Shown here: positions 10,376 through 13,178 of the stretch, one piece after another | Layout: every line of letters starts with the position of its first letter | Numbering within the stretch: position 1 is the stretch's first letter | DNA from: the human T2T-CHM13v2.0 reference genome, Homo sapiens | NCBI RefSeq assembly: GCF_009914755.1 | Contig: NC_060927.1 | Reading direction: 5' to 3' (one strand) | Length of the DNA stretch: 64,000 nt | Notes under the pieces: generated by a model | Seen by the model: only the letters and a program-made list of their open reading frames with translations | Told to the model about the DNA's origin: nothing | Databases searched by the model: none | Position numbers and translations under genes: made by a program

Positions 10376-10575
10376 TGGTAATTTGTTTTCAAAAAGAGAA
10401 ACCAGCTGAGCCTGAGGTCTGGCCTGCAGGCTGAGCCCGAGTCTAGACTGTCACTGTACCTGATGCCCTCATACCAGTGGTCCCCATCCAGGCCATCAGC
10501 TTCATACTAGGAAGCAGGGGATCCAGGGTCCTGGAGTTGAAGGGTACAGAATGTTCACAAAAAGGAGACAAAGTG

Positions 10576-10722
10576 GCCCACGGTGGGGTGGTCCCAGAAC
10601 TTTGGGAGGCCAAGCGGGGGCAGATTGCTTGAGGTCAGGAGTTCAAGACCAGTCTGGCCAACACAGTGAAACCCTGTCTCTACTAAAAATACATAAAAAT
10701 TAGCCAGGCATGGAGGCATGCA
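10576..10722 (+). mobile_element. Alu left-arm fragment, broken at 10722
   Basis: tttgggaggccaag..aaaaattagccaggcatgg, then an abrupt switch to non-Alu sequence. Confidence 0.85.
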
Positions 10723-10978
10723 CCTCAAGACTAGTCTTGTGTAAACCTGTCTCATTGCTGGGGAGGCAGCAGAGTGGCTCTGCCCTCTACAGGGGCTGGA
10801 CTGAGTGTTCTTCAGGGCCTTTCCTGGCTCCAGGGGACACTGCTAAGCTGCCCTTGGCTTATTCCACGCATTGAGCACCTCCACATCCCCAACTAGAGCT
10901 GCCCTGGATGGGAAACTGCTTGTTCAGCCTGATGGAATTTTCTAAGCCCTGTGACACAGGGAATCAAAAAGAGCCTCA
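10723..10978 (+). repeat. Copy A of a ~255-bp intragenic inverted duplication (partner at 50803-51054)
   Basis: Manual alignment to the reverse complement of 50803-51054: about 16 substitutions and 2 small indels (~93% identity). Confidence 0.95.
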
Positions 10979-11283
10979 GCCGGGTGCGGTGGCTCATGCC
11001 TATAATCCCAGCACTTTGGGAGGTCTAGGGGGGTGGATAATTTGAGGTCAGGAGTTCAAGACCAGCCCGGCCAACATGGTAAAACACCATCATTACTAAA
11101 AATACATAAATTAGCAGGGTGTGGTGGCGAACCCCTGTAATCCTAGCTACTTGGGAGGCTGAGGCAGGGGAATTGCTTGAACCAGGGAGGTGGAGGTTGC
11201 AGTGAGCTGAGATCGCACCGCTGCATTCCAGCCTGAGGGACAGAGTGAGACTCTGTCTCCAAAAAAAAAAAAAAAAAAAAAAG
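10979..11283 (+). mobile_element. Alu (S-type), full length
   Basis: gccgggtgcggtggctcatgcc start, both arms, polyA tail. Confidence 0.95.
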
Positions 11284-13178
11284 ACAAAGCTCAACTGGTG
11301 GTGGCGAACTTGGGCAAAATCACAGCATCAGAAAACCTCGGGACTGAAAAGGCCCTCAGAGGTGGTGTGACCCACAGTAAATTACTTGGTATCAGCAGAC
11401 CTGGCTTTCGCCCTCTGCTGAGAGGCCTCAGGCAAACTATCAGCCTCTCTGAGCTGGTTTCCTTAGCTGAAAAAAAGGGATAATAGTTTATGCCTCTAGA
11501 GCTTTGGCAGCCTCAGTGAATTCTATTTGGCTCTCAAGGCCCTGTGTGATTGGACCACTCCAGCCTCCCTGCCTCCTCCCTGTTCCTCCAAGCATCCAGC
11601 TAAGCTTCCAAGCACCGACACTTGTCTTTCCCTCAGGGATCGGCAGGCCACATCCCCTCCCAGTTCCTCCATCTCTGCTCAGATGTCTAGCTCCCCTACT
11701 GGAGTGAGACTGCCATGGGGGACTGAATTATAAATCTAGCCTCCTCATTTTACGGATGGGCCAGGGGGAGGCGGGTAAGTGGTGCTCTGCTCACCAGAGG
11801 GGCAGGATTTTGCCCATGTTAAAAGCCAGTAGGCAGCAGAGGCCACCTGGACACTTTCCCTCAGGCAGCTGCCCTCACTGTCCAGCAGGGAACAAAGTGA
11901 CTTGCCTGCTGTGGCTTAGCTCTCCCTGGTTGGAAGTCCTGCTGCCCTACAGGAGGTAAGCCCCAGCCTGGAGAAGCCACACTCCTAGGGAACATATTCC
12001 TGAGAGTCCAAGAGGGTCAGCAAGGCTAAGCCCCAGAGACCCTTCCTTCCCGGCCTGGATTCTCAGAAGCTCCTGGCCCTGCTGGTGGGAGAAGAGAAAG
12101 CAAGTGGCCCCAACACCCTCTTTATGCCCTACTTCTGGCACACCCTTCTGAAACGTTCTGACCTCATCTGGGCTGAGGACTGAGACCAAGGGTCTGACCA
12201 TCCTTGGCTGGGGAGGGGTTGGGGGGCTACTGGGGTGTTGAAAGAGGGTGCAGTGGGGGCAGCAGCACCTCCAGCATCCCAGCCTGGAGGGGGCTGGGAT
12301 GGGTGGGATGGGAGGTCAGACAGAGGCAGGCCCAGCCTCTCCACATTGGAGACCCTTCCTCCCTGGGAGTCAGCCATCCCAGAAATGGCTTCTGGCTCTG
12401 GCATCCTCCAGCTCGCCCCAGCCCCACAAGATGCTGATGCTGCTCATCTGAATACTGCACCTTGAGAACCACTGTGTTCGAGCGATAGACCTTTCAGTTA
12501 AGGATAGCATTTCCCAGCTTCCCTCTGCACCTGGCTATGCCCAACTGTCTGGCTGATGGGATGAGAGCAGAAGTGACATATGCAACCGTAAAAGGTAAGG
12601 AGAAGTTTGTCTCCTTCCCTTCTCCCCTTCCTGCTGCTGATGGGAAAGCTCAGGCAGTCATTGTAGACCAGAAGATGGAAGCTGCATGTTGAGAACAGTG
12701 GAGCCACAAAACAGAGGGAGCTTGGGTCCCCAAACCTCTGGTGAGGCTACTTCCTGCTTATATCAACTTGACCATTGCAGGAGGCACAAAGGGACTCCTC
12801 CCCTGCTTCAGCCACTGTTGCTTGGGCTTCCCCAGCAGACCAGCTGTGCCCCATGACCACTTTGAATGAAGTCAGCTCAGGATAGAGGGTTGAGGGCTAG
12901 GGTGGCTGGGGGCATTCAGCACTGCCACCTCATGCTGAGGGCTTACAGGTGGCCAGGCCAGGGCCACACGAGGCAATGGAGCTCTGGGGCTCCTGCTTCT
13001 GACTGAGAGGCCTGGGGAAAAGAACACCCTACAGTGGAGGCAGGCAGAGCTCCACCCTGATGGAAGCTCTGCTTCCCACATGCTCACTGATGGGCTGAAC
13101 AGTGCAGCTGCCTGGCTCCTCTGTTAGCAGCAACACTGCCTCCACCCCCTGCACTGAGACTACTGCCCTGGCCCCTAC

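What the first reader, a model, noticed from the sequence alone, without database searches (positions are those of the whole stretch)
10560..11291. Alu-templated capture: ~255 bp of intron 5 plus its Alu copied, inverted, into a broken Alu 40 kb away in intron 14
Seen: 10723-10978 is ~93% identical (about 16 substitutions, 2 indels by hand) to the reverse complement of 50803-51054. Both copies run into an Alu at the same junction. The two Alus share non-consensus changes (aaacaccatc, ggtggcgaac). The intron-5 Alu has its own TSD. The intron-14 block (half-Alu + unique segment + Alu) is bracketed by one outer TSD-like repeat, aaaaggagacaaagt (10561) / aaaaagacaaagct (11279), and the left junction shows cct microhomology. 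Inference: a break in a pre-existing Alu was repaired by invading an inverted Alu 40 kb away, synthesising ~255 nt past its 5' end and rejoining by microhomology (SDSA/MMEJ-type templated insertion). The divergence suggests a catarrhine-age event. It is below the usual 1-kb segmental-duplication threshold, so it is probably unannotated.
Basis: partly seen in the sequence, partly recalled or inferred. Interest (0 to 1): 0.8.

Follow-up and report, generated by a model that had tools for sequence, protein, structure and literature searches.

The report
Inverted intron copy inside an Alu
About 255 bases of CCDC13 intron 5, with the Alu next to them, were copied in reverse orientation into an older Alu 40 kb away in intron 14, most likely as a scar of ancient DNA break repair; it is a clean but ordinary example of a known kind of rearrangement.

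Summary
Window 10723-11278 (+) aligns to 51054-50502 (-): 87.3% over 558 columns. The non-repeat part is 93% identical and the Alu part 86%. T2T-CHM13 holds exactly two copies of the non-repeat part.

Both copies meet an Alu at the same base. The two Alus share two rare variants (1 of 67 and 3 of 67 control Alus). The intron-5 Alu has its own target-site duplication, so the copy went from intron 5 to intron 14. The intron-14 block (Alu bases 1-158, copy, full Alu, A22) sits between one shared 8-mer, AGACAAAG. Its inner left junction has a CCT overlap.

Best reading (0.6): a break or stalled fork in a pre-existing Alu used the inverted Alu as homology, copied past it, and rejoined by microhomology.

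The key prediction, a hybrid right-hand Alu, could not be tested with any power. Both shared rare variants lie in bases 1-158, as predicted, but a whole-Alu copy fits equally well. RNA-based routes are not excluded. No primate orthologues were available.

It is a new example of a known kind, of modest interest.

The parts
10560..10574 (+). Left outer target-site duplication, AAAAGGAGACAAAGT, directly before the Alu 5' end
   Evidence: Shares the 8-mer AGACAAAG (10566-10573) with 11282-11289.
10575..10725 (+). Left Alu piece ('Alu-a'): begins at Alu base 1 and ends at about consensus position 158. It carries an internal deletion of about 8-10 nt near its 5' end.
   Evidence: Alignment to a consensus of 67 local Alus. 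7SL-like Rfam match at 10576-10681. Non-CpG divergence from the consensus is 13 of 124.
10723..10725 (+). CCT shared by the end of Alu-a and the start of the copied segment: the microhomology junction
10723..10977 (+). Copied non-repeat segment (U'), an inverted copy of 51054-50803. Its last 12 nt are the donor Alu's 5' target-site copy.
   Evidence: 93% identity. Two places in the genome. No Rfam match.
10978..11260 (+). Full-length right Alu (b'). It is donor-derived at least through consensus position 153. The origin of its 3' part is unresolved.
   Evidence: Same junction as the donor. Shared rare variants at consensus positions 108 and 152. 7SL-like matches at 10979-11094 and 11114-11261.
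11261..11281 (+). Pure poly(A) tail. The A run is 22 nt (11261-11282), and its last A belongs to the right repeat.
11282..11291 (+). Right outer target-site duplication core, AGACAAAGCT
11298..11309 (+). Unexplained 12-mer GTGGTGGCGAAC, identical to 11121-11132 of the right Alu and including its rare GAAC variant
   Evidence: Naive expectation 0.003.
50803..51054 (-). Donor non-repeat segment (U) in intron 5. Homology to the copy ends at 51054.
50486..50802 (-). Donor Alu (b): body about 50802-50521 plus a degenerate A-rich tail. It is in the sense orientation of CCDC13.
   Evidence: plus the annotation supplied with the finding.
50472..50485 (-). Donor Alu 3' target-site duplication, AAAAACAGAGGCTC. 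Its partner AAAAATAGAGCCTC is at 50803-50816.
   Evidence: This 3' copy is absent from the intron-14 block, which fixes the direction of copying.

Best explanation
Intron 14 of CCDC13 already carried an ordinary full-length AluS insertion in + orientation, with poly(A) and an AGACAAAG-containing target-site duplication.

Around the time apes and Old World monkeys split, this Alu suffered a double-strand break or a collapsed fork near Alu base 158.

The broken end on the 3' side of the Alu paired with the inverted AluS that lies 40 kb away in intron 5 of the same gene. DNA synthesis then ran through the 5' part of that donor Alu and about 255 nt into its unique upstream flank.

The new strand let go and was joined to the other broken end through a 3-nt CCT overlap.

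The result is: Alu 1-158, then an inverted copy of intron-5 sequence, then a full Alu that should be a donor/recipient hybrid, then the old poly(A) and the old target-site duplication.

Shown by the data: the duplication, its two-copy status, its direction, the shared Alu junction, the outer target-site duplication and the microhomology.

Inferred: the pre-existing Alu, the break, the use of Alu homology, and the hybrid nature of the right Alu. The sequence does not decide whether the process was SDSA plus end joining or replicative template switching (MMBIR/FoSTeS).
For: 1. The match is real and has two copies.
2. The donor Alu has its own 12-of-14 target-site duplication. Only the 5' copy of it was carried to intron 14, so the direction is intron 5 to intron 14.
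3. The intron-14 block starts at Alu base 1 directly after AAAAGGAGACAAAGT. It ends with A22 followed by AGACAAAGCT. Its two outer ends were therefore made by one target-primed insertion, as for a single Alu.
4. The left piece stops at consensus position 158. The right Alu shares the donor's rare variants at 108 (1 of 67 controls) and 152 (3 of 67), both at or before 158. In 159-281, 0 of 4 rare variants of the copy and 0 of 2 of the donor are shared. This is the pattern a crossover at the break predicts.
5. There is a CCT overlap at the non-homologous junction.
6. The donor lies 40 kb away in cis. DNA-templated repair favours nearby templates. A trans retrocopy would land that close with a chance of about 80 kb in 3.1 Gb (inference from the genome size).
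7. The class is documented. Inverted repeats, including inverted Alus only about 85% identical, mediate a first template switch, and the second junction shows 1-9 bp of microhomology (PMC11293582, passages).
Against: There is no positive evidence that the right Alu is a hybrid.
- Identity to the donor is even along it: 85.6% and 86.5% in the two halves.
- Non-CpG divergence in 159-281 is 7 of 103. That equals the rate in the unique part and fits a whole-Alu copy just as well.
- Three or fewer shared rare sites all falling in 1-158 is not significant.

Within the Alu, the donor is not a striking outlier among random Alus.
- In 1-158, 4 of 67 controls are as close to the copy on non-CpG sites.
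- In 159-281, 3 of 67 are as close.

Alu-a is not demonstrably older than the event.
- Its divergence is 13 of 124, against 14 of 235 private changes in the right Alu (Fisher p = 0.14).

The outer target-site duplication, the pure A22 tail and the T-rich nick site are also exactly what a single LINE-1-mediated chimeric insertion would leave.

The ancestral state (a plain Alu) was not observed, because no primate orthologues were available.

The 12-mer at 11298-11309 is not explained by this model.
Confidence: 0.6

Rival explanations
1. One-step LINE-1 ORF2p event (a chimeric retrocopy, like a class 1 templated sequence insertion). ORF2p nicked intron 14 at the T-rich site and primed on the A-rich tail of the intron-5 Alu inside CCDC13 pre-mRNA. 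It copied that Alu and 255 nt of upstream intron, switched template onto an Alu RNA at about base 158, ran to its 5' end, and integrated with a target-site duplication.
For: - The whole block is bracketed by one target-site duplication, ends in a pure A22 tail, and sits after TTCAC/AAAAA, which is a T-rich bottom-strand nick site.
- The donor Alu and its upstream flank are in the sense orientation of CCDC13, so such an RNA exists (annotation supplied with the finding).
- Identity to the donor is even along the whole right Alu.
- Alu-a is not demonstrably older than the event.
- ORF2p is reported to insert polyadenylated intronic fragments with a target-site duplication and poly(A) (PMC5110952, passages).
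- 452 Alu/LINE-1 chimeras bounded by target-site duplications are catalogued (PMC13174262, passages).
Against: - A trans retrocopy landing within 40 kb of its source, in the same gene, has a chance of about 3e-5.
- In catalogued chimeras the Alu part is mostly full length (PMC13174262). Here it is cut internally at about 158.
- The donor tail today is a degenerate A/C-rich tract, not a clean poly(A).
Confidence: 0.1
2. RNA- or cDNA-templated break repair in cis. A break in the intron-14 Alu was repaired using the nascent or unspliced CCDC13 transcript as template. That transcript carries the intron-5 Alu in sense and is tethered at the locus. The antisense strand of the broken Alu annealed to the sense Alu RNA, a reverse-transcribing polymerase extended into the upstream intron sequence, and the end was joined by microhomology.
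For: - The product is identical to that of the DNA model.
- It explains the cis proximity through tethering of the transcript.
- It needs the donor Alu to be sense in a transcript that also spans the recipient site, and this is the case (annotation).
- Class 2 templated insertions are interpreted as cDNA or RNA patches at breaks with microhomology (PMC5110952, passages).
Against: - No feature demands RNA. There is no splice junction and no added poly(A) at the inner junction.
- There is no A-to-G excess in the copy: only 2 of its private Alu changes are A-to-G.
- The sense orientation is a 1-in-2 coincidence.
- Germline expression of CCDC13 was not examined.
Confidence: 0.07
3. Two steps. A DNA fragment (unique segment plus the whole donor Alu) was captured by end joining into a break in the intron-14 Alu. 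Later, recombination between the captured Alu and the remaining 3' part of the host Alu, which lay in tandem, deleted the interval.
For: - It gives the same final structure.
- It is compatible with even identity along the right Alu.
- Alu-Alu recombination deletions are common. That background is recalled; the class is named in 10.1101/241356 (passages).
Against: - It needs two independent rare events at one site.
- It leaves no trace of a second end-joining junction.
- The donor's 3' target-site copy and degenerate tail are absent from the copy.
Confidence: 0.08

Closest known systems
Template switching mediated by inverted repeats (junction 1 in inverted repeats, junction 2 by microhomology), as in DUP-TRP/INV-DUP rearrangements and Alu/Alu-mediated rearrangements
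   Same: An inverted repeat pair in cis within 100 kb supplies the homology for one junction. The other junction has a few bases of microhomology. The templated segment ends up inverted. Inverted Alus of about 85% identity are reported to suffice (PMC11293582, passages; PMC6071635, search listing and abstract only).
   Different: Those events are kb-to-Mb copy-number gains in patients, with duplicated flanks. This one is a fixed, ancient, roughly 0.4-0.55 kb insertion with no duplication of recipient sequence, sited inside a single Alu.
One-sided invasion, or coupled homologous and non-homologous repair of a double-strand break
   Same: One end uses homology and primes synthesis beyond the homologous tract. 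The other end is sealed by end joining.
   Different: This is known from reporter experiments. I saw only the title of Belmaaza and Chartrand 1994 in the reference list of PMC4888836; the rest is recalled. Here it is inferred from a fossil product, and the hybrid Alu is not demonstrated.
Templated sequence insertion polymorphisms, classes 1 and 2
   Same: A short stretch of intronic sequence templated from elsewhere has been inserted. The outer ends look like class 1 (target-site duplication, poly(A), T-rich site). The inner junction looks like class 2 (microhomology) (PMC5110952, passages).
   Different: Those insertions are described as coming from distant regions, seemingly at random. Here the donor is 40 kb away in the same gene. 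The class 1-like features are most simply those of the host Alu.
Alu/LINE-1 and other ORF2p template-switch chimeras
   Same: The 5' Alu part and the 3' part have the same orientation inside one target-site duplication, with a poly(A) end (PMC13174262, passages).
   Different: The catalogued Alu parts are mostly full length and the partner is LINE-1. Here the Alu part is cut at about 158, and the partner is an intron fragment carrying its own Alu.
Interlocus Alu gene conversion between neighbouring Alus
   Same: There is non-reciprocal transfer between Alus within 100 kb (10.1101/241356, passages).
   Different: Conversion stays within the homologous tract. Here the tract runs 255 nt beyond the Alu into unique DNA.

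Membership tests
Repeat-homology plus microhomology templated insertion (inverted-repeat or Alu-mediated template switch; one-sided repair) | Donor and recipient each carry a copy of the same repeat, and one junction of the copied tract lies in it | tested here: met
   The copied tract runs from unique DNA into an Alu at the same base in both loci. The recipient is an Alu. The two Alus are inverted in cis, 40 kb apart.
Repeat-homology plus microhomology templated insertion (inverted-repeat or Alu-mediated template switch; one-sided repair) | A hybrid (chimeric) repeat at the homology junction | tested here: inconclusive
   The shared rare variants (positions 108 and 152) lie only at or before 158, and none is shared in 159-281. 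But identity is even along the Alu, and 7 of 103 non-CpG differences in 159-281 fit a whole copy equally well.
Repeat-homology plus microhomology templated insertion (inverted-repeat or Alu-mediated template switch; one-sided repair) | Microhomology or a blunt join at the other junction | tested here: met
   CCT is shared by Alu-a (its last 3 nt) and the donor at 51054-51052.
Repeat-homology plus microhomology templated insertion (inverted-repeat or Alu-mediated template switch; one-sided repair) | The donor locus is left intact and is the older copy | tested here: met
   The donor Alu keeps both copies of its own target-site duplication. The intron-14 copy has only the 5' one.
Repeat-homology plus microhomology templated insertion (inverted-repeat or Alu-mediated template switch; one-sided repair) | The ancestral recipient state is a plain, uninterrupted Alu | not testable with these tools
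   No primate genomes are held. Only the human T2T assembly could be searched.
LINE-1 ORF2p chimeric retrocopy (class 1 templated insertion) | Target-site duplication, 3' poly(A) and a T-rich nick site around the whole insert | tested here: met
   AGACAAAG appears on both sides, with A22 and TTCAC/AAAAA. The same features are expected from the host Alu alone.
LINE-1 ORF2p chimeric retrocopy (class 1 templated insertion) | The 5' partner is a complete small RNA or Alu joined end to end | tested here: not met
   The Alu piece stops internally at about consensus position 158. Catalogued Alu parts are mostly full length (PMC13174262).
LINE-1 ORF2p chimeric retrocopy (class 1 templated insertion) | The source sequence is transcribed in the copied orientation | tested here: met
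   The donor is on the - strand, as is CCDC13 (annotation supplied with the finding). Expression was not examined.
   558 aligned columns at 87.3%.
Dispersed repeat family | Many similarly related copies in the genome | tested here: not met
   The unique part has 2 places in 3.1 Gb. The search is not sensitive to very old, diverged copies.

The most novel reading that the evidence does not exclude
The template was not DNA but the CCDC13 transcript itself. Nascent pre-mRNA carries the intron-5 Alu in sense and is tethered at the gene. It paired with the broken antisense Alu in intron 14 and was reverse-transcribed into the break. That would make this a fixed germline fossil of transcript-templated break repair in cis in primates. 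Separately, the resulting inverted repeat of about 556 nt brackets exons 6-14 in the pre-mRNA. It could drive back-splicing, or A-to-I editing of non-repeat sequence.
Probability: 0.07. Interest if true: 0.75.

Novelty: new member of a known kind. Interest (0 to 1): 0.3.

Why it matters
It is a tidy natural example in which both junctions of an ancient templated insertion can still be read. One junction lies in Alu homology and the other is a 3-nt microhomology. The source is identified and the direction is fixed. The example shows that Alu-assisted template switching, known from pathogenic kb-to-Mb rearrangements, also leaves sub-kilobase scars that become fixed.

A systematic search for 'half-Alu, unique segment, Alu' blocks inside one target-site duplication could measure how often this happens. 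It could also test whether donors are always in cis, and whether they are always sense to a transcript, which separates the DNA from the RNA template.

Locally, the event created the longest and best-matched inverted repeat pair in the CCDC13 pre-mRNA. The predicted duplex energy is -954 kcal/mol. The pair flanks exons 6-14. That makes circular RNA formation and editing of the non-Alu arm testable, but nothing here shows either.

Tried and rejected
1. Dispersed repeat: rejected. There are 2 genomic places.

2. Reversed direction (intron 14 as source): rejected. The intron-5 Alu has both copies of its target-site duplication in place. The intron-14 copy lacks the 3' one, and the flanks after the tails do not align.

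3. Mosaic test of the right Alu. I compared identity by halves and quarters, non-CpG distances, shared decayed CpGs and shared rare variants against 67 control Alus taken from the window plus 200 kb of flanks. There was no power to separate a hybrid from a whole copy. Shared decayed CpGs (4 and 3) are within the control range: 7 and 27 of 67 controls reach them.

4. Relative age of Alu-a against the event: not resolved (Fisher p = 0.14).

5. Is the right flank an old repeat that would explain the 12-mer? A sensitive BLAST of 11283-11480 against 264 kb gave only weak hits (best E = 0.047), all downstream of 11347. None covered 11298-11309. Rfam found nothing there except a below-threshold lncRNA hit.

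6. Control for the 12-mer. 7 of 65 control Alu loci have a body/flank match of at least 12 nt. The matching words that the script printed are common Alu sequence, consistent with neighbouring Alu copies.

7. An RNA-editing signature in the copy was not seen.

9. Orthologues in other primates are not held by any available tool.

10. Literature. No paper in the library holds CCDC13 together with Alu and inverted. The search for CCDC13 with circRNA returned mainly CCDC134 papers.
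Full report
**What is there**

Reading the two regions and a BLAST of 10400-11400 against the whole window show one outstanding non-self match. 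It joins 10723-11278 on the + strand to 51054-50502 on the - strand, at 87.3% over 558 columns. Every other hit is an ordinary Alu-to-Alu match of about 69-83% and is confined to the Alu parts.

The base-by-base alignment gives these figures:
- The first Alu base is 10978 / 50802. The truly non-repeat part is therefore 10723-10977 against 51054-50803, with 16 substitutions.
- The Alu part 10979-11259 is 86.1% identical (241 of 280 compared positions). Identity is even along it, at 85.6% and 86.5% in the two halves.

Searches of the T2T-CHM13 assembly confirm the copy number:
- The 256-nt segment finds two places, itself and the partner (E = 1.4e-96).
- The donor segment plus 346 nt of its upstream flank finds the same two places, and homology ends at 51054.

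The segment is therefore not a dispersed repeat at the sensitivity of that search. Rfam sees only 7SL-like (Alu) matches, at 10576-10681, 10979-11094 and 11114-11261. It finds nothing in the copied unique part.

**Anatomy of the intron-14 block (10560-11291)**

From left to right the block contains:
- AAAAGGAGACAAAGT (10560-10574).
- An Alu that begins at its first base (10575) and stops at about consensus position 158 (10725).
- The copied unique segment (10723-10977), which overlaps the Alu by CCT.
- A full-length Alu (10978-11260).
- A run of 22 A's (11261-11282), whose last A is also the first base of the next element.
- AGACAAAGCT (11282-11291).

The 8-mer AGACAAAG therefore lies next to both outer ends. 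The naive chance of such a placed match is about 1e-4. A looser test, run on 20-mers taken after the A run, found a common word of at least 7 nt in 309 of 20,000 random pairs. So the 5' end of the left Alu piece and the poly(A) end of the right Alu were created by a single target-primed insertion.

**Direction of copying**

The intron-5 Alu is flanked by its own target-site duplication: AAAAATAGAGCCTC (50803-50816) and AAAAACAGAGGCTC (50472-50485), 12 of 14 identical. The intron-14 copy carries only the 5' one, at the end of the copied segment. Its sequence after the poly(A) does not match the donor's 3' flank. The Alu therefore inserted in intron 5 in place, and the unique segment plus Alu was later copied to intron 14.

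**Are the two Alus really related?**

I took 69 full-length Alus from the window and 200 kb of flanking sequence. I aligned them and made a majority consensus from the 67 others.
- The two Alus share C-to-A at consensus position 108, which is present in 1 of 67 controls.
- They share A at position 152, which is present in 3 of 67 controls.
- They also share several common CpG decays.
- TGGTGGCGAAC occurs three times in 264 kb, and two of those are these Alus.

Together with the identical junction, this shows that the right Alu descends from the donor at least through position 153.

**The key prediction could not be settled**

If a break at about base 158 of a pre-existing Alu was repaired by pairing its 3' part with the donor Alu, the right Alu should be a hybrid. 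It would be donor-derived for 1-158 and recipient-derived beyond.

What fits the prediction:
- Both shared rare variants lie at or before 158.
- In 159-281, none of the 4 rare variants of the copy is shared, and none of the 2 rare variants of the donor.

What does not support it:
- Identity is even along the Alu.
- Non-CpG differences in 159-281 are 7 of 103, the same rate as in the unique part (Fisher p = 1.0). They also equal the sum of each Alu's own distance from the consensus, so a star tree and a copy fit equally well.
- Against random Alus the donor is not a clear outlier in either part. In 1-158, 4 of 67 controls are as close to the copy on non-CpG sites; in 159-281, 3 of 67 are.
- Shared decayed CpGs (4 and 3) are within the control range: 7 and 27 of 67 controls reach them.
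- The left Alu piece is not demonstrably older than the event. Its non-CpG divergence is 13 of 124, against 14 of 235 private changes in the right Alu (p = 0.14).

The sequence is therefore compatible with the hybrid but does not prove it.

**Mechanism**

- A pre-existing AluS in intron 14 was broken, or a fork collapsed in it, near base 158.
- Alu homology to the inverted Alu 40 kb away in cis was used on one side.
- Synthesis ran through the donor Alu's 5' part and about 255 nt beyond.
- The end was rejoined through a CCT microhomology.

This is the small-scale counterpart of a documented class. Inverted repeats, including inverted Alus of about 85% identity, mediate a first template switch, and the second junction shows 1-9 bp of microhomology (PMC11293582, passages). 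'One-sided invasion' repair is the experimental analogue. Of that literature I saw only a title in a reference list; the rest is recalled. I cannot tell SDSA plus end joining from replicative template switching.

The main rival is a one-step LINE-1 ORF2p event. It would prime on the A-rich tail of the intron-5 Alu within CCDC13 pre-mRNA, where the donor is in sense orientation, and then switch template onto an Alu RNA. It predicts the same outer target-site duplication, poly(A) and T-rich nick site.
- In its favour, ORF2p is reported to insert intronic fragments (PMC5110952, passages) and to form Alu chimeras (PMC13174262, passages).
- Against it, a trans retrocopy landing within 40 kb of its source has a chance of about 3e-5 (inference).
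- Also against it, the Alu piece is truncated internally, whereas catalogued Alu parts are mostly full length.

A variant, repair templated by the locally tethered transcript, would explain the proximity and cannot be excluded. It is my 'most novel' reading. A two-step route (end-joining capture, then Alu-Alu deletion) is possible but needs two rare events.

**Age**

The K2P distance of the unique part is 0.072. From memory, that is about the human-macaque neutral divergence.

**Unexplained**

The 12-mer GTGGTGGCGAAC of the right Alu (11121-11132) recurs at 11298-11309, 6 nt beyond the right target-site repeat. It includes the rare GAAC variant.
- The naive expectation for any such 12-mer match between an Alu body and its flank is 0.003.
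- Matches of at least 12 nt occurred at 7 of 65 control loci. The matching words that the script printed are common Alu sequence, consistent with neighbouring Alu copies.
- The flank is single-copy and is not Alu-like.
- It may be a short templated patch copied from the Alu 177 nt upstream, or it may be chance. Outgroup sequence would decide.

**Known or new**

- No paper in the library holds CCDC13 together with Alu and inverted.
- A catalogue of intrachromosomal repeat pairs of at least 200 bp and at least 80% identity includes T2T-CHM13 (PMC11794170, passages). It may list the pair, and I did not see its data files.
- The kind of event is known. This locus is a new, well-preserved member.

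Interest is modest. It would rise only if outgroups or a genome-wide survey pointed to RNA templating, or if the inverted repeat of about 556 nt that now brackets exons 6-14 in the pre-mRNA proved to drive circular RNA formation or editing. Its predicted duplex energy is -954 kcal/mol.

Noticed in passing
window 11298-11309 (and 11121-11132): The 12-mer GTGGTGGCGAAC from the right Alu, including its rare GAAC variant, recurs 6 nt past the right target-site repeat in otherwise single-copy, non-Alu flank. It may be a short templated patch, or it may be chance (naive expectation 0.003).
   Followed up: partly
window 51060-51110 (- strand): Just upstream of where the copied tract ends in the donor there is an imperfect direct repeat of about 21-22 nt, GC-rich (gatgggcccctcaggttccgg / gatgggccctcaggttccgagg). 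It could have been a stalling point for the copying polymerase. This was seen by eye only.
   Followed up: no
window 11024-11045: The right Alu has a cluster of private changes at consensus positions 46-63 (46, 48, 52, 61, 63). This makes its first 80 nt no closer to the donor than random Alus are: non-CpG differences are 8 of 64, and 41 of 66 controls are as close. It could be clustered mutation from error-prone repair synthesis, or later conversion by another Alu.
   Followed up: partly
window 11411-11480: The sequence downstream of the composite gives weak, repeated matches (best E = 0.047-0.13) to a few places in the window and its flanks. It resembles, from memory, the core of an old MIR-type SINE. 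No repeat library was available to confirm this.
   Followed up: partly
window 49853-50550 (- strand): According to the annotation supplied with the finding, an exon of another CCDC13 transcript starts at 50550, inside the 3' end of the donor Alu body. The bases before it (cc at 50552-50551 on the - strand) are not an AG acceptor, so it may be a transcript start rather than a spliced exon.
   Followed up: no
window 10102-10398: A further Alu in - orientation lies about 180 nt upstream of the composite. It forms a local inverted pair with the composite's Alu parts (76% over 219 nt to 11070-11288).
   Followed up: no
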